Positions 2,955 through 33,680 of a stretch of 33,758 nucleotides of DNA are shown one piece after another. The translations under genes and the position numbers were made by a program. The notes below the pieces were generated by a model. The model did not search any database and was not told the origin of the DNA. It saw only the letters and a program-made list of their open reading frames with translations. The stretch comes from an uncultured Gammaproteobacteria bacterium. GTDB taxonomy: Bacteria > Patescibacteriota > Patescibacteriia > 2-12-FULL-60-25. Every line of letters begins with the position of its first letter. Positions within the stretch are counted from its first letter, which is position 1. The stretch is taken from the NCBI GenBank assembly GCA_964405175.1, contig CAYOMV010000003.1, positions 1-33,758 on the forward strand, in the 5' to 3' direction.

Positions 2955-2997
2955 TACTATGCTACATGCTACATGTTACATGCTACAAGCTACATGC
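2955..2997. repeat. Heptamer tandem array, unit TACATGC (about 6 copies, variants TACATGT, TACAAGC)
   Basis: Direct reading: tactatgc tacatgc tacatgt tacatgc tacaagc tacatgc. Lies between the kinase terminator and the ruvA start. Confidence 0.9.
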
Positions 2998-3002
2998 CAT
3001 AT

Positions 3003-3031
3003 ATTTTAAAACCTCCCACTTTCGCAGGAGG
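3003..3031 (-). terminator. Intrinsic terminator after the Ser/Thr kinase gene
   Basis: On the minus strand, CCTCC / GGAGG stem (plus coordinates 3012-3016 and 3027-3031) followed by TTTTAAAAT. Confidence 0.5.
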
Positions 3032-3038
3032 TATAGTC

Positions 3039-4559
3039 TCATGGCCCATCCAATCCCGGGATATAGTCAATTCCCGGTTGTAGTGGAGTGACCACCGTAT
3101 TTCGAGGAGCGGCTCTTGACGGCTTGCGCGGCTTGGGAGGTTCCTCGGGAGTTTTGAGTTCAGCGCTTACACCCGCCTCAACCATTTCCTCTTCCTTAGC
3201 AGGATTTACCGTCGCAACTGACTTTGCCGCCAAAGTCGCCGTCGGCAAGGTTGCGGATGCCTTTGGAAGAGTGCTTACCTTTTCGCTTTTCGATGAATTC
3301 GCGGGAAGTCTCGAGCTTGAGGAAACGGATACGGTAGATGCCGCGGAAGCATTTTGCTTTTGCCATGTTTGGTAGCCAAGATAAAGCACACCGCCCATAA
3401 CGGCAATAGCTAGCGCAATCAGCGAAGACTTCATCGCGGTACCGCTTCTTGAAGAAGGCGCGAGCACAGCTGTGGTTTCAAGGCTAATCTTGGATTGAAC
3501 CCCCGCCGGAGTGGGTGTCGCGGCCATGGTTTGGTCTTCCGGATCAACGTTGAATCCGCGCCCAAACACCACCTTCGGCTCCGGATATTCACTCCTGGAA
3601 ACATGGTCGAGCTCAAGCTGCATCGCGTTCAATTCGCTAAGCACGTCAAGCATATCCTGCGGCCTGTCTTCTTGCTTAAACCGCAAGCAATGCAGTATAA
3701 GCTTCTCGAGCCTCGGCTCAACCTTGTCGCAGAAATCACGGATAGGCAAAGGCACGGCCGTGCCGTTGGCCACCTTGGCCAACACGCTCCGCATGTCTCC
3801 GTTCTCAAAGTTGAAAGCCGTTCTCCCGGTGTACATCTCGTACAAGATACAGCCAAACGCCCAAATATCCGACTGCACGCTTGGGAATCCAAGCGCCGCC
3901 TCCGGAGCCAAGTAAGCGGGCGTTCCCCTTAGCATACCTTCCTGTGTGAGCTTGTAATCACCGGAATTTCGTTCGTCATCATGAAACTTGGAAATACCCA
4001 AGTCCATCAGCTGAACAATCGCCTGAGTTCCGCGGCCTGCCACCAGTATGTTGGATGGCTTTACGTCGCGATGTATCACCCCGGCTCCATGAACAGCCGC
4101 TAAACCAGAACCAGCGCGAAGCGCGTAATGCAAAAGCTCGGGATACGGGATCAAAGTGCCCCGAAGCTTTTCGGACGTGGAAGCCTTTGCCAGCTCTTCT
4201 TGCAAGATCACTTCCAATGTCCTGCCTCCGGAAATAAACGGAAACACGAAATACGGATATAGAGCGGGGCCGTCTTGCAAAATGCCGGCTTGGATCAACG
4301 GAAGTACATCCGTGCCCCGCACTTTTTTATGGACTTCCTTCACCCTCTCGAATCTCTTCTTCTCAGCCGGATCATCCGCTCGCCACAACAATTTGATCGC
4401 TACCAAGCGCTCATCCTTTAGCGACTTGGCTTTGTAAACGATAGCCTCGCCGCCTCCGTCTTGCTCCTTGATGATTTCAAACAGTTCTTTGCCGTCATGT
4501 CCCACCAAAGTCCCCGGGGGGAAGATTTTCTTTTCCGTGTAGCCTCCGCCCAAACTCAT
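3039..4559 (-). CDS. Membrane-anchored Hanks-type Ser/Thr protein kinase with Ser/Pro/Ala-rich extracytoplasmic tail
   Basis: VAIK lysine, HRDVKPSNIL catalytic loop, DLG (DFG variant), GTPAYLAPE. One TM helix LIALAIAVMGGVLYLGY. ATG 4559 is preceded by GAGGAG with a 7-nt spacer; the ORF-track TTG at 4589 is less likely. Confidence 0.85.
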   Translation of the reverse strand: MSLGGGYTEKKIFPPGTLVGHDGKELFEIIKEQDGGGEAIVYKAKSLKDERLVAIKLLWRADDPAEKKRFERVKEVHKKVRGTDVLPLIQAGILQDGPALYPYFVFPFISGGRTLEVILQEELAKASTSEKLRGTLIPYPELLHYALRAGSGLAAVHGAGVIHRDVKPSNILVAGRGTQAIVQLMDLGISKFHDDERNSGDYKLTQEGMLRGTPAYLAPEAALGFPSVQSDIWAFGCILYEMYTGRTAFNFENGDMRSVLAKVANGTAVPLPIRDFCDKVEPRLEKLILHCLRFKQEDRPQDMLDVLSELNAMQLELDHVSRSEYPEPKVVFGRGFNVDPEDQTMAATPTPAGVQSKISLETTAVLAPSSRSGTAMKSSLIALAIAVMGGVLYLGYQTWQKQNASAASTVSVSSSSRLPANSSKSEKVSTLPKASATLPTATLAAKSVATVNPAKEEEMVEAGVSAELKTPEEPPKPRKPSRAAPRNTVVTPLQPGIDYIPGLDGP

Positions 4560-4678
4560 GTTTGCGCTCCTCTTGTCTAAAGTGCCCAACTCCGTTTTTT
4601 TTTACGAAGCTCTAAAGAACGTAATAAACCAACCTAACGTATTTTACTAAAAATGTCAAGATATAACCTTAAATTAGC

Positions 4679-4702
4679 AAAAAAAACGAAGTAAATTCGT
4701 TC
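4679..4702 (-). terminator. Intrinsic terminator after ileS
   Basis: AACGAA (4685-4690) / TTCGTT (4696-4701). On the minus strand it is followed by a T8 run (plus A-run 4679-4686). Confidence 0.6.
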
Positions 4703-4726
4703 TTTTTATGCTTGCTTAAAAAATTG

Positions 4727-7660: not shown

Positions 7661-7713
7661 AACGCCTCTTATATTGGCGGAAAAAACGACTTTGGTCAAC
7701 TTAACTTACGTCA

Positions 7714-8577: not shown

Positions 8578-8606
8578 TTGCTAATTACTGCCTGCTATTT
8601 TATAAT
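8578..8606 (+). promoter_or_regulatory. Promoter of rpiB, probably giving a leaderless or near-leaderless mRNA
   Basis: TTGCTA (8578-8583), 17-nt spacer, TATAAT (8601-8606). The ATG at 8615 is only 8 nt after the -10 and there is no SD. Confidence 0.55.
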
Positions 8607-8614
8607 TAAAAAAT

Positions 8615-9052
<438 letters not shown>

Positions 9053-9137
9053 ACCATGATTTTAACTCAAATTCATCGCGTTCTACGCGATTGACGCTCA
9101 AATTTCCTTGATTGCTATAGGACCATTAACCCCTAGT

Positions 9138-9241
9138 GTAGGGATAGGCCTTGTGCCTATCCGTGCTAAAAAATTCCAGGCACGGATAACCACCTCACTT
9201 CGTCATTCGACTGCAAGGGGCGCCGCAAGGATCGTCCCTAC
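9138..9241. repeat. Composite palindromic element of GTAGGG-type units
   Basis: GTAGGGATAGGCCTTGTGCCTATCCGTGC ... GGCACGGATA ... GGGGCGCCGCAAGGATCGTCCCTAC. The terminal GTAGGG/CCCTAC are inverted and the internal arms are hairpins. Confidence 0.75.
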
Positions 9242-9304
9242 GAATAAAACGTATAATCAAGCAAATTAAAAACCAAGACAATGAGTTAATCAAAACGTAA
9301 ATAT

Positions 9305-10032: not shown

Positions 10033-10060
10033 AAACGGATTCTCGTGACAAACGTAATTC
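10033..10060 (+). repeat. 28-nt motif AAACGGATTCTCGTGACAAACGTAATTC, second copy at 33703
   Basis: 24 of 28 identical to 33703-33730 (AAACGGATTCTAGTGATAAACGTGATTT). Both are in intergenic repeat clusters. Confidence 0.7.
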
Positions 10061-10089
10061 TTAATTCATAATTTTTTAATTATAAAGTT

Positions 10090-11079: not shown

Positions 11080-11107
11080 TTGTACATTGCACGTTGTACG
11101 TTGTACA
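11080..11107. repeat. Heptamer array TTGTACA/TTGCACG/TTGTACG/TTGTACA
   Basis: Four phased 7-mers immediately upstream of the 11118 start. Confidence 0.8.
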
Positions 11108-11117
11108 ATAATGCCAT

Positions 11118-12524
11118 ATGAAATTTATAACTAACATTTTGTTAATCTTTACAATGATGCTTTTTGCGGTCCCGCAGGCATCAGCAGAAACAATCAGCTC
11201 GGGAGATCTCATCAAGGCTTCCGGAGCGGCTGTCTATTATTATGGCGCTGATGGAAAGCGCTATGTTTTCCCTACTGAAAAAACCTTTTTCAGCTGGTTC
11301 GAAAACTTTGATTCCGTAAAAACAATTTCCGACACAGATTTGGCGTCTATCGCCATAGGCGGAAACGTCACCTATCGCCCGGGAGTGCGCATGATAAAAA
11401 TTACAACCGACCCAAAAACTTACGCCGTGGCTGCCAATGGCACTTTAAGGCATGTGGCCGGTGAAGATATAGCAATCGCGCTTTATGGAGCCGATTGGAA
11501 CACAAAAATCGATGACATCCCCGATCCTTTTTTCATCAATTACACTATCGGCGACCCAATCAATGATTCCACTGATTTCAACCCGGCCCAAGCCACCGCG
11601 GGCGCAACCAGCATAAATGCCGACCAAATTATGCCGCCATCCAATGGAGGCGATGAAACCCCGGATGATCAAAATCCCCCGGAAGAACCGGGCACAATGA
11701 GCTTTTCCGTCAACGACTCCACTCCCCGCCCCGGTGATGTTATCAATTTCACGGTAGACGCCAACCAAACCGATGGAGTTAGGGAAATCCAAATCTTGAT
11801 GGATGATGAAATTGTAAATACTTGTTCGTTTACAACCATCTGCACCGGAAGCTTTCCCATCCCGGTTGTTACCGATAAAGAAACATACACCGCAAAAGCC
11901 ATAACAAAATTTATCAATCAAACAGAATTGAGCCAGCAGATGACAATACGCGTGGAAGAACAAACCATAGCAAACGGTGTATTCATCTACGCGGATCGTA
12001 CCTCGGTAAAACCCGGCCAATCTACCGGAGTAACCGTTGACGCTCCCGAAATCACCGTGCGCAGAATCGAAATCTTTGTAGACGGCTCAGGCAAATATGT
12101 TTGCGAATCCGGCACCAGAAGCTGTAAATATTCCGTGGAACCCGGAAGTGCCGTGGGCACGTCTGTCACAGTGCATGGAATTGTTACCGATGATATCGGG
12201 CGCACATATCGAAGCGAAAACTTGATAATCTCCGTAACCGAAAACGATTCCCCTATGGTAACCATTCAACCCGATAAAAACACCATATACACGGGAGAAA
12301 CCGTAAATATTACGGTTGCCGCGTCCGACCAAGACGGTATCGCTTATCTCGAAATACTTGACCAATCCCGCCAAATTATTAAACATTGTGAAGGGGCCGC
12401 ACCTTGCACTTATAACTTCGGCCCTTGGAATGAAACCGGCTCGTATACTTTTTACGGACGCTCGGCCGATCTGCTTGGTGCCGAAGATGAGCAGTCAACA
12501 ACAATAAATGTAATAAACCCATAA
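11118..12524 (+). CDS. Secreted protein, paralogue 2: shared N-domain plus three Ig-like repeats of about 90 aa, each with a Cys pair
   Basis: Signal peptide ...VPQASA. N-domain roughly half identical (by eye) to 10090 and 12607. Three repeats share the pattern PG..(I/V)(N/T).(T/V)VDA...(I/V)..IEI..D....C.....C. Confidence 0.8.
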   Translation: MKFITNILLIFTMMLFAVPQASAETISSGDLIKASGAAVYYYGADGKRYVFPTEKTFFSWFENFDSVKTISDTDLASIAIGGNVTYRPGVRMIKITTDPKTYAVAANGTLRHVAGEDIAIALYGADWNTKIDDIPDPFFINYTIGDPINDSTDFNPAQATAGATSINADQIMPPSNGGDETPDDQNPPEEPGTMSFSVNDSTPRPGDVINFTVDANQTDGVREIQILMDDEIVNTCSFTTICTGSFPIPVVTDKETYTAKAITKFINQTELSQQMTIRVEEQTIANGVFIYADRTSVKPGQSTGVTVDAPEITVRRIEIFVDGSGKYVCESGTRSCKYSVEPGSAVGTSVTVHGIVTDDIGRTYRSENLIISVTENDSPMVTIQPDKNTIYTGETVNITVAASDQDGIAYLEILDQSRQIIKHCEGAAPCTYNFGPWNETGSYTFYGRSADLLGAEDEQSTTINVINP

Positions 12525-13392: not shown

Positions 13393-13412
13393 AAAGACAA
13401 AGAAAATCGCAA

Positions 13413-13436
13413 AGACGCCCCTAAGGGCGTCTTTTG
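13413..13436 (+). terminator. Intrinsic terminator
   Basis: AGACGCCC (13413-13420) / GGGCGTCT (13425-13432) followed by TTTT. Confidence 0.8.
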
Positions 13437-13451
13437 GCTTATATAACTAAA

Positions 13452-14585: not shown

Positions 14586-15494
14586 ATGAAAACCATTAAA
14601 CAGTTGGAAAAAATCGCCAACCAAATCCGCCAAGACATAATCAACATGCTATTATCCGCAGGCTCCGGCCACTCTGCCGGCCCGCTGGGGATGGCTGATG
14701 TTTTTACCGCGGTTTATTTGGGAGGTGTGGCAAACCTCAACCCCAAAAAGAAAAACGACCCTTCTCGCGACCGTGTCGTGCTCTCAAACGCGCACATCTG
14801 CCCTGTTCTCTACGCAGCCCTCGCTCATGCCGGCTTTATCCCTCACTCCAAGCTAAAAACACTTCGCAAATTCGGCAGCCCCCTGCAGGGCCACTCCAAC
14901 AACCATTACAACAACGGTATCGAAACCTGCGGAGGCCCGTTGGGCCAAGGCCTTTCTCAAGCCTGCGGTATGGCTCTCGCTTCCCGAATCAATACCAAAT
15001 ATCAAATACCAAATGCCAAATCTAAACAGCGTAATACGAAATACGAAATACGAAATTCGAATTATCATACCTGGTGCCTCATGAGCGACGGTGAATTTAA
15101 CGAAGGCCAAACCTGGGAAGCCGTAATGCTGGCCGGCAAATACGACCTACGCGAAGTAACCGCTATAATCGACCGCAACAATATCCAAATCGACGGCTTT
15201 ACGGAAGACGTAATGCCCCTGGAAAACTTCCGCGCCAAACTCGAAGCTAACAATTGGTTCGTTATCGAAGTAGACGGCCACAACATCAGAGAAATTTTAG
15301 ACGCCATGAAAAAAGCCAAAGCCATGGCCGCCAACCCAACCGCAATCATCTGCCACACAATACCGGGTAAAGGGGTCGACTTCATGGAGAATAAATTTGA
15401 ATGGCACGGAAAACCCCCCAACAAAGAAGAGGCCAAACAAGCCCTCCACGACATCCGAACCTTAGGCGGTAAAATTTACAGTGAACACCAATGA
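14586..15494 (+). CDS. Transketolase, N-terminal (TPP/pyrophosphate-binding) subunit
   Basis: Starts MKTIKQLEKIANQIRQDI. GSGHSAGPLG, GPLGQGLS, SDGEFNEGQTWEA, IDRNNIQIDG. The ORF-track start at 14433 lies upstream of a terminator and adds non-family residues. Carries an in-frame repeat insertion. Confidence 0.9.
   Translation: MKTIKQLEKIANQIRQDIINMLLSAGSGHSAGPLGMADVFTAVYLGGVANLNPKKKNDPSRDRVVLSNAHICPVLYAALAHAGFIPHSKLKTLRKFGSPLQGHSNNHYNNGIETCGGPLGQGLSQACGMALASRINTKYQIPNAKSKQRNTKYEIRNSNYHTWCLMSDGEFNEGQTWEAVMLAGKYDLREVTAIIDRNNIQIDGFTEDVMPLENFRAKLEANNWFVIEVDGHNIREILDAMKKAKAMAANPTAIICHTIPGKGVDFMENKFEWHGKPPNKEEAKQALHDIRTLGGKIYSEHQ
14991..15067. repeat. Eleven phased heptamers (AATACCA-type then AATACGA-type) inside the transketolase N-subunit CDS
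   Basis: aatacca aatatca aatacca aatgcca aatctaa acagcgt aatacga aatacga aatacga aattcga attatca. Translated as NTKYQIPNAKSKQRNTKYEIRNSNYH. Confidence 0.9.
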
Positions 15495-15532
15495 TAAAAA
15501 AGATTTTGGATTACTTTGATTTTATACAGTAT

Positions 15533-15574
15533 AGTGATCAGTGAACAGTGAATAGTGGATAGCGATTAGTGAAG
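15533..15574. repeat. Heptamer array AGTGAAC-type (6 copies), left flank of the four-helix-bundle gene
   Basis: agtgatc agtgaac agtgaat agtggat agcgatt agtgaag. Complementary to the array at 15955. Confidence 0.9.
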
Positions 15575-15585
15575 TTATAAAAGAT

Positions 15586-15954
15586 ATGTATATAGAAAAA
15601 TTTGAAGATTTGATAGTCTGGCAAAAAGCTAAAAAACTGAATATCATAATTCACAACTGCATGATAAAAGTAAACGATTTCGGCTATAAGAATCAAATCG
15701 AAAGAGCTCCCATATCAATAATGAACAATATCGCTGAAGGCTTCGACAAACAAACTACTAAAGAATACAAACAATTTCTACATATAGCCAAAGGATCGTG
15801 CAGCGAAGTAAAAAGCATGCTTTATCTGGGACTGGAATACAAATATTTCAATATCGAACAATTTAACGAAGCATACATGTTGACTGAAGAAATTAGTAAA
15901 ATATTATTTAAAATGATTAATTCACTACAACAAAAACTCAACAATAAACCCTAA
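15586..15954 (+). CDS. Four-helix-bundle protein (23S rRNA intervening-sequence protein family)
   Basis: 122 aa. FEDLIVWQKA, ISIMNNIAEGF, F..FL.IAKGSCSEV are the hallmarks of this family as I recall them. Confidence 0.85.
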   Translation: MYIEKFEDLIVWQKAKKLNIIIHNCMIKVNDFGYKNQIERAPISIMNNIAEGFDKQTTKEYKQFLHIAKGSCSEVKSMLYLGLEYKYFNIEQFNEAYMLTEEISKILFKMINSLQQKLNNKP

Positions 15955-15993
15955 TTCACTGTCCACTGTTCACTGTCCCCTGTCCCCTGTCCT
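15955..15993. repeat. Heptamer array TTCACTG/TCCACTG/TCCCCTG (5.5 copies), right flank of the four-helix-bundle gene
   Basis: ttcactg tccactg ttcactg tcccctg tcccctg tcct, then ATG 15994. 15955-15975 is complementary to 15539-15559 at 18 of 21 positions. Confidence 0.9.
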
Positions 15994-17739: not shown

Positions 17740-17770
17740 CTAGAAGCTAGAGGCTAGAAGCTAGAGGCTA
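17740..17770. repeat. Heptamer array CTAGAAG/CTAGAGG x4.4
   Basis: ctagaag ctagagg ctagaag ctagagg cta. Confidence 0.9.
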
Positions 17771-18396: not shown

Positions 18397-18808
18397 CCTG
18401 GAGGCCTTGCCCGGCCCCCGGGACACTCTCAAAATATAAAGTCCCTTCACAAATCTTCGAGACTATAAATTTGAGAGAACAAGCATGCCTTAAGCAAAGG
18501 GCAAATACCGAAAGCAAGGCGCGCTTTCGTAAACATAAGACTGTTATCGCATAGCGAAGCAGTCTGTCGCATGAGGCGAGGAGAGAATTTAAACCGCACT
18601 CGGTTAACGAGGCGGACAAGGAGGAAGCCGCAGCAGGAGTGCGCGGCACTGTCGGGTCGAATGACCTGGCAAGGTCGGGTCGAATGACCTGACAAAAGAG
18701 GAGATCTTAAAAACTTAAGCATGCTTAGCCCATGACGTAGGGACACTGTCCCGCCCATGGGACAGGTAAAATCGCTAACCGCCGCGACATTTGTCAAAGC
18801 GGTTTTTT
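18397..18808 (+). ncRNA. Candidate structured non-coding RNA or very long leader, family unassigned
   Basis: No credible ORF. Bounded by a promoter and a hairpin-T6 terminator. Many local helices and one long-range 13-bp helix. Contains a tandem duplicated 18-nt hairpin. Details are in the findings. Confidence 0.5.
18777..18808 (+). terminator. Intrinsic terminator ending the non-coding unit
   Basis: AACCGC (18777-18782) / GCGGTT (18799-18804) with inner GACA/TGTC, followed by T6. Confidence 0.6.
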
Positions 18809-18816: not shown

Positions 18817-18851
18817 CTCTTTGCACTTTGTACTTTATACTTTATACTGAT
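18817..18851. repeat. Heptamer array CACTTTG/TACTTTA (5 copies) that also supplies promoter-like hexamers
   Basis: ctctttg cactttg tacttta tacttta tactgat. Contains TTGCAC (18821-18826), a 16-nt spacer and TATACT (18843-18848), 9 nt before ATG 18858. Confidence 0.85.
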
Positions 18852-20298: not shown

Positions 20299-20421
20299 GT
20301 TAACCACCTGACAAAATTATTTGGCTAAAACACTAAACAAATTACTCATAAAACGTCATCCTGAACTTGATTCAGGATCTAAAAAATAGCTTATTTTAGC
20401 CAAATTACTTGCTAAGCACCC

Positions 20422-20577: not shown

Positions 20578-20695
20578 CTCGGCTTCCCTTCCTACCGTAC
20601 GAATTACGAATCTTGAACGAATTACGAATCAATTTCAAAGCCATTCGTAATTCGCGCTTATTCGTAATTCGTAAAGTGAGAAGGGAATAATCCCA
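20578..20695. repeat. Composite palindromic element, copy 1 (118 nt)
   Basis: Outer stem TTCCCTTC/GAAGGGAA. Inner arms are TACGAAT heptamer repeats facing ATTCGTA repeats. Ends 43 nt before ATG 20738. Confidence 0.85.
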
Positions 20696-20737
20696 CGCAC
20701 CTCAACCCCGCCCCAAAAGGGGCAAAGGAGATTGAAA

Positions 20738-21445
20738 ATGAATCGTTCAACCATGTTTGTATCTTGTTTCTTGGTAGTATTTGTATATATTTTATGTGGC
20801 TGCTCCGCAAAGCAACCCCATGAGGCTCATACGGTGATCCGAGTGAGCGCAGAACCGAGATCGGAATATCCTTTATTTGAAGAGGACCCACCTACCTGGG
20901 TAACGCACTGCATTTTGAAAAGCGAATTGAAACCACCGAGTTTCAATTTGCTGAGCTACCCTCAAATGAACCTGGAGACGCAGATAGAACAAGAAACACG
21001 GCTTCAATTCCGTGTCCCAGAATACCAAGAGAATGGCATTCGTATCGATCCCGAGCTTTGGCAAGAAATGTATGTTGGCCGTATCATAGGCAACTTCTAC
21101 ATTTCAAATATCAATAAAAAGGCCAAAGCTGCAATGCAATTAATGAGCAATCAACAGAATCTTAGGTGGTATGAAATAGCGCCGAGGTCATATAAAAGCT
21201 CCTTTATTGGATTGCTTTCCGCTCGCACTGCGCATGGAGAGATACACGGAGTCTTTAGCGACTTAAATGCGCACGAAGAATGCCGAGAAAACTTCCGTTA
21301 CTTATTCGATTTGGATGAGCTAGACTATAAAGGCAAGCTCTTCAGAAACAACGCCGGAATGACCGGCTTGTTGAGCTTTCAGCCCGAATATGTCGAACTT
21401 ATCCTACCTGGAAGCGGACCGATCTGCGTCCAGGTTAATTCCTAA
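20738..21445 (+). CDS. Putative lipoprotein (235 aa), no known domain
   Basis: AAAGGAG RBS 7 nt upstream. MNRSTMFVSCFLVVFVYILCGCS has a lipobox-like LCGC. The 5' end is shared with 22234. Confidence 0.6.
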   Translation: MNRSTMFVSCFLVVFVYILCGCSAKQPHEAHTVIRVSAEPRSEYPLFEEDPPTWVTHCILKSELKPPSFNLLSYPQMNLETQIEQETRLQFRVPEYQENGIRIDPELWQEMYVGRIIGNFYISNINKKAKAAMQLMSNQQNLRWYEIAPRSYKSSFIGLLSARTAHGEIHGVFSDLNAHEECRENFRYLFDLDELDYKGKLFRNNAGMTGLLSFQPEYVELILPGSGPICVQVNS

Positions 21446-21479: not shown

Positions 21480-21578
21480 CTCGGCTTCCCTTCCCACCAT
21501 ACGAATTACGAATCTTGAACGAATTACGAATCGTTTCAAAGCCATTCGTAATTCGTAAAGTGAGAAGGGAATAACCCA
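21480..21578. repeat. Composite palindromic element, copy 2 (99 nt)
   Basis: Colinear with copy 1 apart from a 17-nt deletion in the 3' arm and a few substitutions. Ends 35 nt before the 21613 start. Confidence 0.85.
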
Positions 21579-22233: not shown

Positions 22234-23856
22234 ATGAACCGCAACATGCAAATGTTTGTATCTTGTATCTTGGTAATGTTTGGTCAATTTTTGTTCGGTT
22301 GTGGCGGAACAGACCACACCACGGTCGAATTCTACGAATCGCCCGAGATGTGCGTGCCTGGAATTTTCGCGGCTTGTTGGTGCGAATCCGGAGCAACCGG
22401 CCACCAGATCTGCCGCGAAGACGGCATGGCCTACGGCCACTGTGAGTGCCCCGACGAGCCCACCTACGACGCCGGCACTTCGCCCGAAACTTCCACACAG
22501 GAAGACGCGGGTACCGAGCCGGATGCGGAGACTGGTGCGGAAGCTGATGCGGAAGCTGATGCTAAGGCAGATACCCAAGCTGACGCCGCAGATGATGCCC
22601 AGGCGGATGCCGAAACGGATGCCGAGGCGGATGCCGGATCACACGATAAACTCGTGATCTACGGTGACGGACATCCACAGTCTTCTATCGTAATCGCAGG
22701 AAGCGAGGTCTGGAGGCCTTTTTCCAGATACAAGGCGTGCGCAAATTTCGAAAATGTTCGCATCAAGATCATTTCTCCACAATGTCTTGATGCTAACAAT
22801 GAATCCGCTATCCATGCCACCGGCGAAGTAGGTGTAGCGGTCGGCGGTGCACTGCAAGGCACCAGCGGATTCACTGGAGGCATTGATTTCCTAGACGTAT
22901 ATCTCGGCAACGGTTTCATAGTACCGGCCGGTGGTTGCGTCAAATTCGAAATTTGGGCAAAGATGAAAGATGTGCAACCGCATGGCGTTTGCACGCACTC
23001 ACATTGTCCGCGTTCCGGGCAAGCGCTCAAAATACGCGTTGGTCACAGTGCACAAGACTATTGGACTGACGCGGGGATAACGCCAGAATGGTATGGAAAA
23101 TTGTTCATTCATGCCTTTGGTGAAGTAAGCGGCGAACAAATTTACGCCGCAAAAGGCGCTTCGGAGCCAAACTTCATGGTCGTCCGCAAGAGCAAGCCGG
23201 TTGTGACACCGATGCAGCTCGCGAGCACCACCCTCGCAGCCGGTGAGCAAGAAATCGCACGCTGGCAAGTTGGTGCGGACAACGCAGGTGGAATCGCTTT
23301 CAAACAAGCGATGTTCACCATCAACAAAACCACGGGTGTGAGCCTAGGCAACTTCCGCCTCTACCGCGGAGCCACCATGCTCAACCTAGGTGAATTCAAC
23401 ATCAGAAATGCTGTTACGGCCGTAGACCTCAAAAGCGGTGTCGCAACCGACACGCAAACGACGGTCGCCGTTTCGCTCGTTGGCGAAGAACAAGTTGCGG
23501 GAGCCGGCAACGTCTACAGCCTGCGCGCTGTTCCAGCAGTGGTCGGCACTGGCAACTATATCAAGACCAAATTCTACACAAACATGCCCGAAAAGGCTGC
23601 ACCAGTTACCGGCTACCTGCTCAACAACGACGAATACACGCCATACGTCGCATCCTCCTACATATTCAACGTTGGGGATTATAGCGGCTGTGGCACCGGA
23701 AGCGATTGCTGGCACGCAATCGGTTCATTTGTGTGGTCTGATCTCTCCGAGATTCCGCACAACATCCAAACCCAGCCCTCCGGAGGTTCGCGTGACTGGT
23801 CGACTGACCAGCACATCGAAAACCTCACCGAAGCCCTCTGGACCCTCTCCAACTAG
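22234..23856 (+). CDS. Large putative lipoprotein: Cys-rich EGF-like module, acidic (DAxA)n linker, two beta-rich domains
   Basis: AAAGGA RBS. MNRNMQMFVSCILVMFGQFLFGCGG. CVPGIFAACWCESGATGHQICREDGMAYGHCEC. Acidic linker of about 38 aa. About 400 aa with no recognised domain. Terminator at 23886. Confidence 0.7.
   Translation: MNRNMQMFVSCILVMFGQFLFGCGGTDHTTVEFYESPEMCVPGIFAACWCESGATGHQICREDGMAYGHCECPDEPTYDAGTSPETSTQEDAGTEPDAETGAEADAEADAKADTQADAADDAQADAETDAEADAGSHDKLVIYGDGHPQSSIVIAGSEVWRPFSRYKACANFENVRIKIISPQCLDANNESAIHATGEVGVAVGGALQGTSGFTGGIDFLDVYLGNGFIVPAGGCVKFEIWAKMKDVQPHGVCTHSHCPRSGQALKIRVGHSAQDYWTDAGITPEWYGKLFIHAFGEVSGEQIYAAKGASEPNFMVVRKSKPVVTPMQLASTTLAAGEQEIARWQVGADNAGGIAFKQAMFTINKTTGVSLGNFRLYRGATMLNLGEFNIRNAVTAVDLKSGVATDTQTTVAVSLVGEEQVAGAGNVYSLRAVPAVVGTGNYIKTKFYTNMPEKAAPVTGYLLNNDEYTPYVASSYIFNVGDYSGCGTGSDCWHAIGSFVWSDLSEIPHNIQTQPSGGSRDWSTDQHIENLTEALWTLSN
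22522..22635 (+). repeat. 12-nt periodic coding repeat, (GAT GCN GAR RCN)n, encoding the DAxA linker
   Basis: gatgcggag actggtgcggaa gctgatgcggaa gctgatgctaag ... gatgccgaggcg gatgcc. Confidence 0.75.
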
Positions 23857-23916: not shown

Positions 23917-24070
23917 TTTTTGAGTATGAAAAAAAACTTGTGTTTTTATAAAGCATCATTCCCCCGCCTCGATATTCATCGAGGCACCCCCTTTCACCCA
24001 TCTACGTCTAAAACTTCGCTGGGCAGGTAAAGGGGGCTTGCTAACTTCAAGACATAAGTCCTTAAAGCTA

Positions 24071-24138
24071 GAAGTCCGTAGGACGTAGTGGGGTAATCGG
24101 CTCGCCCCTCGAAGTCCGTAGGACGTAGTGGGGTAATC
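24071..24138. repeat. 28-nt direct repeat x2 (GAAGTCCGTAGGACGTAGTGGGGTAATC) with 12-nt spacer
   Basis: Perfect copies at 24071-24098 and 24111-24138. Each contains the hairpin GTCC-GTA-GGAC. Confidence 0.9.
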
Positions 24139-24153
24139 ATTAATCGGTAATTG

Positions 24154-24181
24154 ATATTTGGTATTTGGTATTTAATGTATT
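24154..24181. repeat. Heptamer array ATATTTG/GTATTTG (4 copies), reverse complement of the ACCAAAT units in the transketolase N-subunit gene
   Basis: atatttg gtatttg gtattta atgtatt. Abuts the stop codon of the DUF2207 gene. Confidence 0.85.
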
Positions 24182-27651: not shown

Positions 27652-28652
27652 ACCTCCTTTACAAAGCCAAACAACTTTTTTCAGAAAACCAAATAATGGT
27701 TGTGCTTTTTGGCATAATAGCCGGGCTCATATTCCCCAAAATTTTCGAACCCCTCGCGCCTTACACAACGCAAATGCTGATTCTGATCTTTTTTTGCTCC
27801 AGCTTAAGGCTCGAACTCAAAGAGATCATTGCCTATGCCAAAGATTGGAAGATGCTGGCTTTGGCCAATGGCTTCATGCTTGTTTTCTTGCCTGTTTTAA
27901 TGTGGCTACCACTGGTTCTATTTGCTCCGGATTGGGCAATGGCTTTTTTGATCTTGGGTGCCATGCCCACCGGCATGACAATCGCTCTAATAGCCGACTT
28001 GTTCGGAGGCAAAACCACGCTTGCTCTTGTTATCACCGCCACAACCTCTCTCTTGGCTCCGCTCACAATCCCTTTTGTGTTCTGGATTACGATTGGCCAA
28101 GTCGTGCCCGTCCCGGTTGTTTCACTCTTTACAAATTTATTTATCACAATAGTCTTGCCTTTTATTGTCGCCACATACGTCAAACAAAAAGCTCCAAAAT
28201 TTGTAATCAAACACGACTTTTGGTGGCGTGAAATTTCCATCATCACCTTTGGCATTTTAATCGCCACCATCGTTGCCGACACGGTAGGCTCCGAGGGCCG
28301 AATCACTTTGGATTACCGTGATGCCGGCTTGGTTACAGTAATGCTCATCTACATGTCGGCTTTAATCGCAATTTCTTATTTTATGAGCTGGTGGCGCACC
28401 AATGCCGAAAAAGCAACAATCGCACTTTGCATAGTTTACCTAAACAACACTCTATCACTCTATATAGCTAACAAATTTTTCCCGGATCCAAAACTCATGA
28501 CCCAGCTTGTCATTTTACTGCTTGTCATTAACGTACTTTTACCCCCCTTCCGCTGGATAGCCGCCCGCGCCGTTGAACTGGATGCCAAAACTCAAAACCA
28601 ACGCAACAAAAAAAGGCGTACTAAGAACCAACGTCGAACGTCAAAAGTCTAA
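27648..28652 (+). CDS. Polytopic membrane transporter, bile acid:sodium symporter (BASS)-like fold
   Basis: About 9-10 predicted TM helices. LGAMPTGMT-type segment. ATGA overlap with the kinase stop. Basic C-terminal tail. Family assignment is tentative. Confidence 0.6.
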   Translation: MNLLYKAKQLFSENQIMVVLFGIIAGLIFPKIFEPLAPYTTQMLILIFFCSSLRLELKEIIAYAKDWKMLALANGFMLVFLPVLMWLPLVLFAPDWAMAFLILGAMPTGMTIALIADLFGGKTTLALVITATTSLLAPLTIPFVFWITIGQVVPVPVVSLFTNLFITIVLPFIVATYVKQKAPKFVIKHDFWWREISIITFGILIATIVADTVGSEGRITLDYRDAGLVTVMLIYMSALIAISYFMSWWRTNAEKATIALCIVYLNNTLSLYIANKFFPDPKLMTQLVILLLVINVLLPPFRWIAARAVELDAKTQNQRNKKRRTKNQRRTSKV

Positions 28653-28663
28653 CGTCAACGCCG
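28629..28663. repeat. Heptamer array AACGTCN (5 copies) spanning the transporter stop codon
   Basis: caacgtc gaacgtc aaaagtc taacgtc aacgccg. Confidence 0.8.
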
Positions 28664-28673
28664 CATAACTGCT

Positions 28674-28736
28674 AGATACCAGCCGCCAGATGCAAGATAC
28701 TAAATAATAGATAATAGATAATAAATAATAAATGTT
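28674..28736. repeat. Heptamer array AGATACC to AGATAAT to AAATAAT (9 copies)
   Basis: agatacc agccgcc agatgca agatact aaataat agataat agataat aaataat aaatgtt, then ATG 28739. Confidence 0.85.
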
Positions 28737-33110: not shown

Positions 33111-33131
33111 TGCTTGGTTTTTGCGTGTAAT

Positions 33132-33380
33132 TCAATACCTCAAAGACATCGCGTCAAAATCCTTTAAATAATCAATTTCTTCTTCCAATACTTTCTGAAA
33201 TTCTTTAGTGTCTCTATTCTTATAGGCGGATTTTTTGCGTAAAAAAAATTTATGCAAGATGGGCAGCGCCGTAAGAATCTTCTCCAGATCTTCAGGCTTA
33301 GGATCCGGCATCTGCATCATTTCCGAGACAAAATCCGGGTCGGGCATATTTATCGCTTGATATACCAATTCAGTCCTCAT
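33132..33380 (-). CDS. Hypothetical 82-aa protein
   Basis: ORF with a plausible acidic helical composition. Its start overlaps the stop region of a preceding 55-aa ORF. Confidence 0.45.
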   Translation of the reverse strand: MRTELVYQAINMPDPDFVSEMMQMPDPKPEDLEKILTALPILHKFFLRKKSAYKNRDTKEFQKVLEEEIDYLKDFDAMSLRY

Positions 33381-33381
33381 A

Positions 33382-33549
33382 CTAATCTTCCAAAGCCGTT
33401 TCCGACAATCTTAAAGCCGCCAAACCCGCCCACTTTGCTTCTTTGCTTTTCAATTCTTTTTTCAGTTTCTTTTCTTGCTTTTCCACCAAAACCCGAAACG
33501 GAGCCTTTTCGCTCTCAGGAGAAACAAATTTTTCAAGTTTTTCATTCAT
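33382..33549 (-). CDS. Possible 55-aa coiled-coil ORF (below the ORF-track cutoff)
   Basis: Hand translation: MNEKLEKFVSPESEKAPFRVLVEKQEKKLKKELKSKEAKWAGLAALRLSETALED. The stop TAG is 1 nt from the next ATG. Weak RBS. Confidence 0.3.
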   Translation of the reverse strand: MNEKLEKFVSPESEKAPFRVLVEKQEKKLKKELKSKEAKWAGLAALRLSETALED

Positions 33550-33593
33550 ATTCTCATTATTTCTTCAGCCCCCCATCCCTCTAACCGTTAGCT

Positions 33594-33642
33594 GATCATT
33601 ATTTATTATTTGTTATTTCTGATTTGTTATTTATTATTTAAT
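33594..33642. repeat. Heptamer array ATTTATT/ATTTGTT/ATTTCTG (7 copies)
   Basis: gatcatt atttatt atttgtt atttctg atttgtt atttatt atttaat. Reverse complement resembles the AATAAAT-type units at 28702-28736. Confidence 0.85.
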
Positions 33643-33657
33643 ATCTGAAAGTTTTTT

Positions 33658-33680
33658 AGCCTCTAGCCTCTAGCTTCTAG
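33658..33680. repeat. Heptamer array AGCCTCT/AGCTTCT (3.3 copies), reverse complement of CTAGAGG/CTAGAAG
   Basis: agcctct agcctct agcttct ag. Confidence 0.9.

What the first reader, a model, noticed from the sequence alone, without database searches (positions are those of the whole stretch)
2955..33680. Tandem arrays with a fixed 7-nt period but many different unit sequences at operon boundaries
I read at least 14 separate arrays, all with an exact heptamer period. Their starts are 2955, 7714, 8772, 11080, 14991, 15533, 15955, 17740, 18817, 24154, 28629, 28674, 33594 and 33658. The TACGAAT arms of the palindromic elements at 20578 and 21480 add to this.

Unit sequences differ between arrays, for example TACATGC, CTAGARG, GAGATAC, TTGTACG, AATACCA, AGTGAAC, TACTTTA, AACGTCN, AGATAAT and ATTTATT. 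The 7-nt phase is kept even across degenerate units.

Some unit families recur at distant loci and in both orientations:
- CTAGARG at 7732, 17740 and rc at 33658.
- ACCAAAT at 14991 and rc at 24154.
- TACGAGA / TACGAAA / TACGAAT at 8772, 15033, 20598 and 21500.

So this is neither one mobile element copied around nor simple local slippage of one motif. Heptameric short tandemly repeated repetitive (STRR) sequences are known from heterocystous cyanobacteria. I do not know of an equivalent description for a genome with this gene content.

Several arrays sit exactly between a terminator and the next start, and at least one (18817) supplies -35/-10-like hexamers. A role in transcription initiation, RNA processing or insulation is therefore conceivable.
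Basis: partly seen in the sequence, partly recalled or inferred. Interest (0 to 1): 0.7.

Follow-up and report, generated by a model that had tools for sequence, protein, structure and literature searches.

The report
Heptamer tandem repeats in Patescibacteria
A small-genome candidate-phyla (Patescibacteria) bacterium is peppered with short 7-base tandem repeats of the kind long known from cyanobacteria; they look like fast-evolving dispensable DNA rather than gene switches, but some form the hairpin arms of a small gene cassette that I also found in five bacterial phyla, which hints at where such repeats come from.

Summary
Period 7 is a strong outlier: 14 arrays against 0.25 expected in shuffles, and 0-3 at every other period. 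An independent assembly is identical across the one array it covers.

The window belongs to an Uhrbacteria-like Patescibacteria clade. Ten syntenic genomes carry 2.4-8 heptamer arrays per 10 kb. Four further relatives with the same gene order carry none, so the arrays are dispensable.

At orthologous sites the unit sequence, and sometimes the period, differs between genomes, while units within one array stay uniform. That is concerted evolution.

The arrays fill 11% of intergenic DNA.

About a sixth to a quarter of arrays form inverted pairs that fold into long hairpins. One pair brackets a four-helix-bundle gene (PF05635, "23S rRNA IVS protein") between tktN and tktC. I found the same layout around PF05635 genes in cyanobacteria, Bacteroidota, a spirochaete and Azospirillum.

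Verdict: these are STRR-type heptameric repeats in a new phylum, not conserved regulatory sites. The cassette link is a new lead on their origin.

The parts
2919..2945 (.). 14-nt (2 x 7) direct repeat ACTCTAAACTGACT x1.9. It overlaps the putative ruvA promoter. The true ruvA start is probably 2910.
2959..2997 (.). Heptamer array ATGCTAC x5.6. It lies between the kinase-gene terminator hairpin (3004-3030) and the -35 box of ruvA.
   Evidence: identical in the independent assembly L001
7713..7761 (.). Inverted pair of heptamer arrays, (AGCCTCT)n and (CTAGAGG)n, forming a 16-bp hairpin, followed by (GCTAAAA)2.4. It lies between the divergent -35 boxes of ileS and gene 7837.
   Evidence: DNA fold z = -5.7. 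The same unit occupies the same place in L004 and L008; L003 has 9-mers there; L002 and L007 have no arrays.
8771..8804 (+). Perfect heptamer array CGAGATA x4.9 inside rpiB, read in frame as RDTRYEIRDTR. This is the loop just before the CGSGVG active-site strand.
10055..10073 (.). Heptamer array TAATTCA x2.7 upstream of gene 10090.
11080..11106 (.). Heptamer array TTGTACG x3.9 abutting the -10 box of gene 11118 (a Big_7 domain protein).
   Evidence: every relative has a different array at this spot
14991..15061 (+). Two adjoining heptamer arrays, (AATACCA)4-5 and (AATACGA)4, inside the transketolase N-subunit gene. They are read in frame as a roughly 19-residue loop insertion.
15531..15573 (+). 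Left arm of the cassette: heptamer array AGTGAAC x6.
   Evidence: (I7: 21 nt, 90% complementary to 15954-15974)
15586..15954 (+). Four-helix-bundle protein gene (TIGR02436 / PF05635, the '23S rRNA IVS protein' family, Avd-like). It is inserted between tktN and tktC.
15955..15992 (+). Right arm of the cassette: heptamer array TTCACTG / TCCCCTG x5, the reverse complement of the left arm.
17740..17770 (.). Heptamer array CTAGAAG / CTAGAGG x4.4, 13 nt upstream of the TTGACA -35 box of gene 17016 (minus strand).
18817..18848 (.). Heptamer array ACTTTAT x3.4-4.5. It overlaps a promoter-like TTTGCA-17-TATACT upstream of the PfkB kinase gene.
20578..20690 (.). Palindromic element, copy 1. The outer stem is TTCCCTTC...GAAGGGAA; the inner arms are (TACGAAT)n / (ATTCGTA)n.
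   Evidence: z = -7.8. The same element family, with different heptamer arms, occurs in L012.
21480..21575 (.). Palindromic element, copy 2. It lacks a 17-nt stretch of heptamer-repeat arm (ATTCGTAATTCGCGCTT) that copy 1 has. The two copies flank ORF 20732..21445.
   Evidence: z = -8.2
22256..22272 (.). Short heptamer array TTGTATC x2.4 at the predicted start of ORF 22234.
24146..24173 (.). Heptamer array GGTATTT x4, the reverse complement of the AATACCA unit in tktN. It lies in a convergent intergenic region.
28629..28660 (.). Degenerate heptamer array CAACGTC x4.8 overlapping the stop codon of gene 27648.
28674..28733 (.). Degenerate heptamer array AGATAAT x8, directly upstream of the gene that starts at 28739.
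33598..33644 (.). Heptamer array ATTATTT x6.7.
33657..33680 (.). Heptamer array TAGCCTC x3.4, the reverse complement of CTAGAGG.

Best explanation
**What it is.** The window comes from an Uhrbacteria-like Patescibacteria (CPR) bacterium. Its genome, like those of about nine close relatives, carries many short tandem arrays of 7-nt units. The median is 4 copies and the maximum seen is 18. These are the CPR counterpart of cyanobacterial STRRs and of the heptameric simple-sequence repeats reported in many bacteria.

**How it works.**
1. Each array is kept internally uniform by repeated loss and gain of whole units, that is, slipped-strand mispairing. This step is inferred from concerted evolution.
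2. Arrays persist only where sequence constraint is low. This is shown. They occupy spacers between a terminator and the next -35 box, DNA upstream of or within weak -35 regions, and two permissive surface loops of RpiB and transketolase-N, where they are read in frame.
3. Roughly a sixth to a quarter of arrays occur as inverted pairs that fold into long hairpins. This is shown. I infer that template switching keeps the two arms complementary.
4. One pair (15531-15573 and 15955-15992) is the stem of a small cassette that carries a four-helix-bundle gene (PF05635) between tktN and tktC. The same layout recurs around PF05635 genes in other phyla. This is shown.
5. By analogy with 23S rRNA intervening sequences, the stem is probably an RNase III site that releases the cassette from the operon transcript. 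This step is inferred.

The arrays are not sequence-specific regulatory elements and are dispensable for the operon structure.
For: - **Period-7 excess.** In the window, 14 arrays against 0.25 expected. Nine close syntenic genomes hold 90 period-7 arrays against 13, 6 and 22 at periods 6, 8 and 9; a tenth, L018, adds 5 more period-7 arrays.
- **Dispensability.** Four syntenic relatives (L015, L016, L017, L019) have none, including L019 at 44% GC.
- **Turnover.** At orthologous spacers the arrays differ in unit and even in period: 7-mers against 9-mers in L003 and 6-mers in L004. Orthologous slots still share units more often (24.6%) than non-orthologous ones (4.3%), so arrays descend and drift rather than being re-created.
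- **Concerted evolution.** The rpiB loop holds 5 units in five genomes, with the whole array changed together: CGAGATA, CGAAATW, CAAAATT, and CGACGWG/GGACGAG. L015 has a short, repeat-free loop. tktN shows the same behaviour.
- **Constraint-limited location.** Arrays cover 11.2% of intergenic against 0.66% of coding bases. With independent gene calls, 24 of 36 arrays in L012-L014 lie in the 10-19% of DNA that is intergenic. The array-coded rpiB segment aligns with a loop of solved RpiB structures.
- **Hairpins.** 13 of 80 arrays have a reverse-complement partner within 600 nt, against 1-2 for reversed or complemented controls. Fold z-scores are -5.7 to -9.
- **Cassette.** The 4HB gene is bracketed by inverted arrays in the window and L013, with the same family of gene and arms but 6/5 against 3/18 copies. 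A different 4HB gene with different arms occupies the site in L002-L004. The site is empty in L008, L012 and L014-L017; in L018 no gene is called in the 81-nt spacer, which holds a heptamer array.
- **Cassette in other phyla.** 12 of 16 4HB genes have flanking inverted repeats scoring at least 12, against 3 of 89 control genes (P = 6e-6).
[quoted passage not shown] Heptamer repeats inside ORFs are described in PMC4679880.
Against: - No direct measurement of slippage or of copy-number polymorphism was possible; no reads or near-identical strains were available apart from one identical assembly.
- Generic slippage does not explain why the period is 7.
- The same period in the arms of 4HB cassettes in unrelated phyla suggests a period-specific mechanism tied to the cassette rather than to this clade's replication machinery.
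- Some spacers keep a hairpin in four to five of the six genomes compared although the sequence changes completely, for example after rpe. This could mean selection for structure.
- Three arrays end 11-13 nt upstream of a -35 box, a regularity that a purely neutral model does not predict.
- All data come from about 20-kb syntenic loci, not whole genomes.
Confidence: 0.6

Rival explanations
1. **Mobile-element origin.** Most arrays are arms or relics of a family of hairpin cassettes. The full version carries a PF05635 four-helix-bundle gene, or another small gene such as PDDEXK_3. Solo inverted array pairs are empty derivatives, comparable to MITEs or REPINs, and single arrays are decayed halves. 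The 7-nt period would then belong to the cassette mechanism and not to the host. This overlaps in part with the best explanation.
For: - 4HB genes are bracketed by inverted heptamer arrays in five phyla.
- A PDDEXK_3 gene in L020 sits in a similar stem.
- A second hairpin element family has a conserved outer stem (TTCCCTTC...GAAGGGAA) and variable heptamer inner arms. In both the window and L012, two copies flank a small ORF.
- Arm-type units turn up as solo arrays elsewhere. L013 12467-12521 carries both arm families side by side, including a 17-nt match. L004 21682 carries window-type arm units.
- The tktN|tktC site is occupied in a patchy way by two different cassettes.
- The closest homologues of the window's 4HB protein outside the clade are from Bacteroidota (about 60% identity), closer than the L004-type 4HB (50%), which suggests horizontal transfer.
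- Hairpin inserts occur in frame in rpiB in L004, L007 and L008, and the same hairpin occurs intergenically in the window at 20358-20378.
- Plasmid-borne 4HB genes are concentrated in Nostocales, the classic STRR hosts.
Against: - Arrays have no defined ends, no target-site duplications and no recombinase.
- There is no excess of unit sharing within a genome over sharing between genomes.
- Most window arrays (about 12 of 20) have no inverted partner and do not fold.
- There is one 4HB gene for about 20 arrays.
- Five of the ten array-bearing genomes have no 4HB gene in the sampled locus.
Confidence: 0.25
2. **Cis-regulatory or structural function**. The arrays act as promoter UP or -35 elements, as insulators between transcription units, or as terminators or RNA-processing hairpins, and are kept for that role.
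For: - Arrays sit between terminators and promoters, 11-13 nt upstream of three -35 boxes.
- Promoter-consensus matches lie inside the arrays at 11081 and 18820.
- The same spacers hold an array or hairpin in most array-bearing genomes.
- Strong hairpins occur after rpe in four of six genomes.
Against: - Four syntenic relatives have no arrays at all.
- Spacers are sometimes reduced to 1 nt or to overlapping genes.
- Units and periods differ at the same site.
- The hairpins lack U-tracts, while canonical terminators exist nearby.
- Arrays also lie inside coding sequences.
- Promoter-like matches in the window are no more frequent than in shuffles.
Confidence: 0.1
3. **Contingency loci.** Gain or loss of one unit switches genes on or off, by frameshift in rpiB or tktN or by altered promoter geometry, as with the heptanucleotide repeats upstream of Haemophilus hmw1A.
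For: - A perfect 4.9-copy array lies in rpiB, and a single-unit change would shift the frame.
- Concerted evolution implies ongoing changes in unit number.
- Heptanucleotide phase variation is known in Haemophilus (PMC8262952 and PMC12721329, titles and abstracts).
Against: - The affected genes are housekeeping pentose-phosphate enzymes, not surface or host-interaction genes.
- Arrays are short and mostly degenerate, with 70-90% matches.
- The rpiB array has the same 5 units in five genomes.
- Within a periodic array, a one-unit change does not alter promoter spacing.
Confidence: 0.04
4. Assembly or chimera artefact of metagenome assembly.
For: The window is a metagenome-derived sequence. Short repeats can in principle confuse assemblers.
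Against: - The arrays are 15-71 nt long, shorter than reads.
- An independent Logan assembly is 100% identical over 5144 nt.
- The same habit appears in ten MAGs from NCBI, ENA and JGI projects, and in-frame arrays are conserved in position.
Confidence: 0.01

Closest known systems
STRR (short tandemly repeated repetitive) sequences of heterocystous cyanobacteria (Calothrix, Anabaena, Nostoc)
   Same: Tandem heptanucleotide units, mostly intergenic, many dispersed copies, several unit sequences per genome, no established function.
   Different: The host is a Patescibacteria bacterium with a genome of about 1.3 Mb. None of the canonical units (CCCCAGT, TTGGTCA, CAACAGT) occurs as a dimer in the window, and one 14-mer of one of them occurs across ten genomes. 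Arrays are shorter. Sister genomes mix periods 6, 7 and 9.
Over-represented heptameric simple-sequence repeats in bacterial genomes (2007 survey as cited in PMC4692102; Xanthomonas GGGAATC and Nostoc GGGGAYT repeats)
   Same: Period-7 excess confined to intergenic DNA. Length and sequence vary between related species at the same intergenic sites. Some arrays are arranged as inverted repeats. [quoted passage not shown]
   Different: Those cases are dominated by one G-rich unit able to form G-quadruplexes. Here there are dozens of units, mostly A/T-rich with TAC, ACG or CTAG cores, and no G4 potential.
TAACTGA direct repeats of Beggiatoaceae, cyanobacteria and Bacteroidetes (PMC4679880)
   Same: Heptamer direct repeats of 2-6 copies, mostly intergenic and close to start codons, occasionally inside ORFs. 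The phylogenetic distribution is patchy with no known transfer mechanism.
   Different: That system has a single unit sequence; TAACTGA dimers are absent here. The in-ORF cases there lie at protein termini, whereas here they lie in internal loops of essential enzymes.
23S rRNA intervening sequences (IVS) carrying an S23p / PF05635 ORF (Leptospira, Coxiella and others; from established knowledge)
   Same: An ORF of the same protein family sits in the loop of a long stem formed by the inverted ends of the insert. The insert lies inside a transcribed unit. In rRNA, RNase III removes the stem without religation.
   Different: Here the insert lies between two protein-coding genes of an operon, not in rRNA. 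The stem arms are tandem heptamer arrays. Cleavage has not been shown.
REP / REPIN elements and their RAYT genes (PMC3116915)
   Same: Short repeats are dispersed through intergenic DNA and often form hairpin pairs. A small gene is characteristically flanked by the repeats in inverted orientation.
   Different: REPs have a fixed sequence of about 20-35 nt per family, and RAYT is a recognisable transposase. Here the arms are variable tandem arrays, and the 4HB protein has no known catalytic activity.
Rickettsia palindromic elements inserted in frame in protein genes (from established knowledge)
   Same: Selfish repeats are tolerated inside essential protein-coding genes at permissive surface positions and are read through as extra peptide.
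   Different: RPEs are palindromic elements of 100-150 bp with a conserved sequence. Here the inserts are 35-70 nt of tandem heptamers whose unit changes between genomes.

Membership tests
STRR / heptameric simple-sequence repeats | Head-to-tail repeats with a 7-nt unit, in phase, without indels | tested here: met
   TRF reports 0% indels in most arrays. The phased print-out agrees.
STRR / heptameric simple-sequence repeats | Period 7 over-represented relative to neighbouring periods and to chance | tested here: met
   14 arrays against 0.245 expected. 90 period-7 arrays against 13, 6 and 22 at periods 6, 8 and 9 in nine genomes. Tested only on loci of 20-34 kb, not on whole genomes.
STRR / heptameric simple-sequence repeats | Predominantly intergenic and dispersed | tested here: met
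   11.2% of intergenic against 0.66% of coding bases. 24 of 36 arrays are intergenic with independent gene calls.
Classical cyanobacterial STRR1-3 | Unit sequences CCCCAGT, TTGGTCA or CAACAGT | tested here: not met
   No dimer of these units in the window, and a single 14-mer across ten genomes.
Classical cyanobacterial STRR1-3 | Host is a heterocystous cyanobacterium | tested here: not met
   The nearest homologues are named Patescibacteria or Candidatus Uhrbacteria. The gene content is CPR-like.
TAACTGA repeat system | Unit TAACTGA, directly upstream of start codons | tested here: not met
   No TAACTGA dimer in any of ten genomes.
G-quadruplex heptamer repeats (GGGNATC, GGGGAYT) | G3-4 run in every unit | tested here: not met
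   No such dimers. Only one G-rich array was seen, in L008 (GGGTGAG).
Phase-variable contingency loci | Copy-number polymorphism within populations that switches expression of the adjacent gene | not testable with these tools
   No reads or near-identical strains were available. The one independent assembly has the same copy number at the one array it covers.
Phase-variable contingency loci | Long, perfect arrays in or next to surface or host-interaction genes | tested here: not met
   Median 4.1 copies, mostly 70-90% matches. The in-gene arrays lie in rpiB and tktN.
Intrinsic terminators | GC-rich stem followed by a U-tract | tested here: not met
   The array hairpins have no T-run. Canonical terminators occur separately in the same spacers.
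IVS-type cassette (PF05635 ORF within a stem) | ORF of the PF05635 / TIGR02436 family | tested here: met
   TIGR02436 at 95 bits against a cut-off of 24. PF05635 is recorded for the homologues.
IVS-type cassette (PF05635 ORF within a stem) | Insert bounded by inverted repeats able to form a long stem | tested here: met
   21 nt at 90% complementarity, 400 nt apart. Also seen in L002-L004, L013 and in 11 of 13 independent contexts first scored (12 of 16 genes). Six further plasmid contexts add two clear inverted pairs.
IVS-type cassette (PF05635 ORF within a stem) | Located in a 23S rRNA gene and excised by RNase III | tested here: not met
   The insert lies between tktN and tktC. Cleavage is not testable here.
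REP / RAYT or MITE-type mobile repeats | Conserved element sequence with defined ends, target-site duplication, and an associated transposase | tested here: inconclusive
   The two palindromic elements at 20578 and 21480 are true repeated elements with a relative in L012. The arrays themselves have no fixed ends. No RAYT-type gene is in the window; the only transposase is an IS1595.

The most novel reading that the evidence does not exclude
Heptamer tandem arrays, including the classical cyanobacterial STRRs whose origin has been unexplained since 1990, may be the arms and scattered relics of a widespread hairpin cassette. This cassette carries PF05635 four-helix-bundle ('23S rRNA IVS protein', Avd-like) genes, and sometimes PDDEXK_3 genes, into operons and rRNA genes.

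On this reading the 4HB protein relates to the arrays roughly as RAYT relates to REP sequences: it binds, maintains or helps spread them. The 7-nt period would then be set by that mechanism rather than by the host replication machinery.

What the evidence shows is the association: inverted heptamer arrays around 4HB genes in Patescibacteria, Cyanobacteriota, Bacteroidota, Spirochaetota and Pseudomonadota. It does not show causation.
Probability: 0.2. Interest if true: 0.8.

Novelty: new member of a known kind. Interest (0 to 1): 0.5.

Why it matters
**The arrays themselves.** They extend a known but unexplained class of bacterial repeats to the candidate phyla radiation. In these roughly 1.3-Mb genomes, non-coding DNA is scarce, yet 11% of it is array sequence. 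Arrays are even read in frame inside two pentose-phosphate enzymes.

**A comparative system.** Array-rich and array-free genomes in this clade share the same gene order. Comparing their replication, repair and accessory genes could reveal what causes the 7-nt habit.

**The 4HB link.** PF05635 four-helix-bundle genes in five phyla sit inside stems made of inverted heptamer arrays. This gives the first concrete, testable handle on where STRR-type repeats come from. It also bears on what the very common 'four helix bundle protein' genes of cyanobacteria, Bacteroidota and CPR do.

**For annotators.**
- Array-coded peptide inserts in rpiB and tktN are real features, not frameshift errors.
- Several ORF starts in this window are over-extended into arrays.

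Tried and rejected
- **Genome-specific copy-and-paste.** The rpiB and tktN arrays share a unit within a genome, which suggested homogenisation between loci. A pooled test over 89 arrays showed no excess of within-genome sharing (4.8%) over between-genome sharing (4.3%), so I dropped it as a general rule.
- **Shared core motif or 4-nt palindromes in units.** CTAG, ACGT and TAC are enriched. The palindrome excess is weak (51% against 36-39%) and inflated by orthology. Single-linkage clustering merges 63 of 89 units into one continuum, so there are no clean families apart from CTAGAGG.
- **GC content as the cause.** Array-free L019 has 44% GC, like the window.
- **Known RNA families.** Rfam found no credible match anywhere in the window: the single hit, at the palindromic element (21491-21566), scored 29 bits against a 74-bit gathering threshold.
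- **tRNA or tmRNA association.** None were found.
- **Promoter and terminator consensus scans.** Counts are near shuffle expectation, so they are not evidence of function.
- **DGR link for the 4HB (Avd-like) gene.** Family searches of the window's main ORFs found no reverse transcriptase.
- **Phage origin of the 4HB gene.** There was no match in 50,697 phage records.
- **Literature.** I found no description of heptamer repeats in Patescibacteria or CPR, and none linking PF05635 genes to heptamer arrays. The searchable library is incomplete.

Full report

Yes. Printing the sequence in 7-nt phase shows the units directly.

A simple exact-repeat test finds 11 runs at period 7 and 0-1 at periods 5, 6 and 8-13. 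Counting TRF arrays of at least 2.5 copies gives 14 at period 7. In 200 shuffles that keep local dinucleotide content the mean is 0.245 and the maximum 3. No other period stands out except three in-frame 12-mers in a repetitive protein.

A contig assembled independently from run SRR7048223 is 100% identical to window 1045-6188, including the 2959 array.

The claimed recurrence of unit families holds. CTAGARG occurs at three loci. AATACCA has its reverse complement at 24146. TACGA-type units occur at several loci. In total 13 non-local unit pairs differ by at most one base, against 5.2 expected (P about 0.0005).

**2. What organism, and is the habit shared?**

The window (45% GC) encodes RuvA, a Ser/Thr kinase, IleRS, RpiB, Rpe, a split transketolase, PfkB kinases, an IS1595 transposase and many unknowns. 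The closest IleRS and transketolase-C homologues come from MAGs named Patescibacteria group bacterium or Candidatus Uhrbacteria, several on contigs of 1.3-1.4 Mb.

I collected 14 syntenic loci of about 21-23 kb, ordered by transketolase-C identity to the window:

| Group | Transketolase-C identity | Period-7 arrays |
|---|---|---|
| Nine genomes | 75-92% | 6-17 each (2.6-8.1 per 10 kb) |
| L018 | 72% | 5 |
| L015, L016, L017, L019 | 70-74% | 0 |

The four array-free genomes have the same gene order, and L019 has 44% GC.

Over the nine close genomes, period 7 accounts for 90 arrays, against 13, 6 and 22 for periods 6, 8 and 9. L003 is unusual in having more 9-mers (12) than 7-mers (9). The habit is therefore clade-limited within Patescibacteria, dominated by period 7 but not exclusive to it, and dispensable.

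**3. Where the arrays sit**

In the window, arrays occupy 11.2% of intergenic bases and 0.66% of coding bases. With the collection's own gene calls, 24 of 36 arrays in L012-L014 lie in the 10-19% of DNA that is intergenic.

Reading the spacers shows recognisable sigma-70-type promoters. Arrays typically fill the DNA between a terminator hairpin and the next -35 box. The 2959 array ends 11 nt before the TTGTCA of ruvA. The ileS and 17016 arrays end 13 nt before their -35 boxes. The ileS array lies exactly between two divergent -35 boxes. Elsewhere arrays replace the -35 region of promoters that carry an extended -10, as upstream of gene 11118.

- 8771-8804 is a perfect (CGAGATA)4.9 inside rpiB, read as RDTRYEIRDTR.
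- 14991-15061 is a double array inside the transketolase N-subunit gene, adding about 19 residues.

The rpiB segment aligns with a loop of solved RpiB structures and is only 3-4 residues longer than theirs.

**4. Evolution at orthologous sites**

The same spacers carry arrays in most array-bearing genomes, but with different units and sometimes different periods.

Between ruvA and the kinase gene the spacers hold:
- window: ATGCTAC
- L004 and L007: an inverted GTATCT / AGATAC pair
- L003: 9-mers
- L008: G-rich GGGTGAG

Upstream of ileS the spacers hold:
- window and L004: a CCTCTAG / CTAGAGG hairpin
- L008: a CTAGAAG array
- L003: inverted 9-mers
- L007: a GC hairpin without repeats
- L002: nothing

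Orthologous slots share units far more often (24.6% within one mismatch) than non-orthologous ones (4.3%). Sharing within a genome (4.8%) is no higher than between genomes. Arrays are therefore inherited and drift, rather than being copied around within a genome.

The clearest case is the rpiB loop. Five genomes each have five units, but the whole array differs between them:

| Genome | rpiB loop unit |
|---|---|
| Window | CGAGATA |
| L012 | CGAAATW |
| L013 | CAAAATT |
| L002, L003 | CGACGWG / GGACGAG |

L014 has 9-mers at this loop. L004, L007 and L008 have a short hairpin insert. Array-free L015 has a short plain loop.

This is concerted evolution: units within an array stay alike while the array diverges between species. 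It implies continuing gain and loss of units, filtered by the need to keep the reading frame. The tktN loop behaves the same way in all array-bearing genomes except L008, and also in L018.

**5. Hairpins**

Thirteen of 80 arrays have a reverse-complement partner within 600 nt at one mismatch or fewer per two units, against 1-2 for reversed or complemented controls. With slightly looser matching the fraction is about a quarter.

The spacer after rpe folds into a 24-32 bp stem built from arrays in L003, L004, L007 and L008 (z = -6.5 to -9). The fold is weaker in L002 and in the window. The ileS hairpin and the two palindromic elements fold strongly (z = -5.7 to -8.2). The direct arrays at 24146, 28629-28733 and 33598-33680 do not fold.

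The hairpins lack U-tracts, and ordinary terminators occur beside them. They are not intrinsic terminators.

**6. The cassette between tktN and tktC**

The arrays at 15531 and 15957 are reverse complements of each other (21 nt, 90%). They bracket a 122-residue four-helix-bundle protein gene (TIGR02436 / PF05635, the '23S rRNA intervening sequence protein' family, related to the DGR accessory protein Avd; PMC10053308).

The junction in each genome is as follows:

| Genome | tktN / tktC junction |
|---|---|
| L008 | 1 nt |
| L012, L014, L015, L017, L019 | No insert |
| L016 | A DUF4349 gene instead |
| L018 | No gene called in an 81-nt spacer that holds a heptamer array |
| L007 | A perfect 22-bp palindrome |
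| Window | (AGTGAAC)6 - gene - (GTTCACT-type)5 |
| L013 | Same gene type (72% identity), arms (CAGTGAC)3 and (GTCACTA)18 |
| L002-L004 | A different 4HB gene (50% identity), arms of AGTCCT / AGTACCT hexamers and 13-mers |

The flanking tktC is about 91% identical throughout, so occupancy of the site is patchy and involves two cassette types.

**7. The cassette layout is general**

Inverted tandem arrays, nearly all of period 7, bracket the gene in these cases:

| Organism | Arm units | Context |
|---|---|---|
| Moraniibacteria MAG | GAGAGTTA | Between two glycosyltransferase-operon genes |
| Flavobacteriales MAG | Not listed | Between sufS and sufE |
| Spirochaete MAG | AAAGTTG / CCCTTTC | - |
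| Nostoc ATCC 53789 | GGGAAAA / CCCTTTT | Plasmid |
| Anabaena 90 | GGTGACA / CTGTCAC | Between cas6 and cas4 |
| Calothrix NIES-22 | AGGGTGT / CTACACC | Plasmid |
| Nostoc edaphicum | AGGGAAC / CTGTTCC | Plasmid |
| Riemerella | GGTTCAA / AAACCTT | Plasmid |
| Azospirillum | AGAGGAC / CCGTCCT | Plasmid |
| Picosynechococcus | Not listed | Between cas10 and cmr3 |
| Stanieria | Not listed | Plasmid |

Arrays are one-sided or short in N. punctiforme, Scytonema, Aulosira and PCC 7120, and absent in one Calothrix plasmid.

Scored objectively, 12 of 16 4HB genes have flank inverted repeats of score 12 or more, against 3 of 89 other genes. The medians are 16 and 7, and Mann-Whitney P = 6e-6. Two of the three high-scoring controls are themselves small inserted genes:
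- a PDDEXK_3 gene with array arms;
- an ORF flanked by two copies of the hairpin element family also present at window 20578 and 21480.

The upstream arm is purine-rich in nearly every case. Plasmid-borne 4HB genes are concentrated in Nostocales, the classical STRR hosts (16 of 24 records). I found no paper that describes this association.

**8. Interpretation**

The best-supported account is that these are STRR-type heptameric simple-sequence repeats. They are non-essential DNA with fast turnover, kept uniform by slippage. They accumulate wherever constraint is low. They often pair into hairpins, some of which are the stems of small gene cassettes.

Shown here:
- the period excess;
- the clade limitation;
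- dispensability;
- constraint-limited location;
- concerted evolution;
- the hairpin pairing;
- the cassette layout.

Inferred:
- slippage as the homogenising process;
- template switching to keep arms complementary;
- RNase III cleavage of the stem, by analogy with rRNA intervening sequences.

A structural role for some hairpins cannot be excluded. Generic slippage does not explain the period of 7. The recurrence of period 7 in cassette arms across phyla keeps open the more novel reading that the arrays originate from, or are maintained by, the 4HB cassette system. I give that reading about 0.2 probability.

**9. Comparison with known systems and novelty**

Excess of heptamer SSRs is documented for many bacteria: Xanthomonas, Nostoc, Beggiatoaceae, other cyanobacteria and Bacteroidetes (PMC4692102, PMC4679880). 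Those reports include inverted arrangements, variation between related species at the same sites, and occasional occurrence inside ORFs. None of the named units occurs here.

The window is therefore a new member of a known kind, in a new phylum. Its less usual features are in-frame arrays in essential enzymes and mixed periods among sister genomes. The 4HB-cassette association is, as far as I could find, undescribed, and it is the part worth following up.

Noticed in passing
window 18339-18827 (+ strand); also L003 155-785, L008 225-744, L012 about 11680-12150, L013 about 13120-13500: A conserved non-coding region of about 430 nt lies between gene 17772 and the PfkB kinase gene. It has its own TTGACA promoter and a terminator (caaagcggtttttt). 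Blocks such as GAGGCTATAAACTTGAGAGAAC, GGCGCGCTTTCGTAAA and ATCGCATGAGGCGAGGAGAGA are strongly conserved, and 14 of the 60 predicted pairs have at least one sequence with a compensatory change. There is no Rfam match at E <= 0.1, and it lacks RNase P and tmRNA sequence signatures by eye. It is a candidate large ncRNA of this clade. ORF 18447..18797 on the minus strand is probably spurious. It also contains a 23-nt x2 repeat at 18651-18695.
   Followed up: partly
window 9053-9304; L004 7181-7455; L008 8256-8398: The 252-nt rpiB-rpe spacer is conserved between genomes and contains hairpins (gggataggccttgtgcctatcc; gtgctaaaaaattccaggcac). It has no Rfam match. It may be a leader or a small RNA.
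   Followed up: no
L020 3230-3800; also L020 2431-2942: In a Moraniibacteria MAG, a PDDEXK_3 (GxxExxY-type) gene and a 4HB gene are each inserted into a glycosyltransferase operon. Each is bracketed by array-like inverted repeats (CAGAACCACTGA / TCAGTGGTTCTG with ACTGATT-type repeats). Hairpin cassettes may therefore carry more than one kind of small gene.
   Followed up: partly
window 20578-20690 and 21480-21575; L012 18120-18210 and 18560-18640: A hairpin element family has a conserved outer stem (GGCTTCCCTTC...GAAGGGAATAATCCC) and inner arms made of heptamers that differ between genomes (TACGAAT in the window, TCTAAGT in L012). In both genomes two direct copies flank a small ORF with no family match (window 20732..21445; L012 18223..18513).
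   Followed up: partly
window 7662-7699 (ileS), 8578-8617 (rpiB), 2908-2947 (ruvA), 11080-11120: Several genes appear to be leaderless. A good -10 box lies only 7-9 nt upstream of the ATG and there is no Shine-Dalgarno sequence, for example ileS with TTGACC-N-TATAAG-tgcatt-ATG, conserved in all relatives. The listed ORF starts of ileS (TTG at 7699, which is in fact the -35 box), ruvA (2955) and tktN (14433) are over-extended.
   Followed up: partly
window 13504-14307: An IS1595-family transposase gene is inserted between the cupredoxin-like gene and tktN in the window only. Every relative lacks it.
   Followed up: partly
L004, L007 and L008 rpiB loop; window 20358-20378: A short hairpin, ATCCTGAA-N5-TTCAGGAT, is present in frame in rpiB of three relatives, encoding DPETSSGL. 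The same hairpin occurs in an intergenic spacer of the window. It looks like a tiny mobile or recurrent palindrome that can sit in coding sequence.
   Followed up: partly
L027 (Anabaena sp. 90 pANA02) and L033 (Picosynechococcus PCC 7003 plasmid): 4HB cassettes with heptamer-array arms are inserted inside CRISPR-Cas operons: between cas6 and cas4, and between cas10 and cmr3.
   Followed up: no
window 24057-24140: A direct repeat of about 41 nt (GAAGTCCGTAGGACGTAGTGGGGTAATC...) occurs twice in the convergent spacer just upstream of the 24146 heptamer array.
   Followed up: no
L003 rpiB 8765-8799, tktN 3257-3289 and the homologue of gene 111 at 20999-21030; L004 2705-2737 and 20868-20886: The same 14-nt higher-order unit (GGACGAGCGACGWG) lies on the coding strand of three different genes in one genome and gives the peptide GTSDVGRAT in each. 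A heptamer array encodes the same cyclic 7-residue peptide in all three frames. Only units without a stop triplet can therefore survive in genes.
   Followed up: partly
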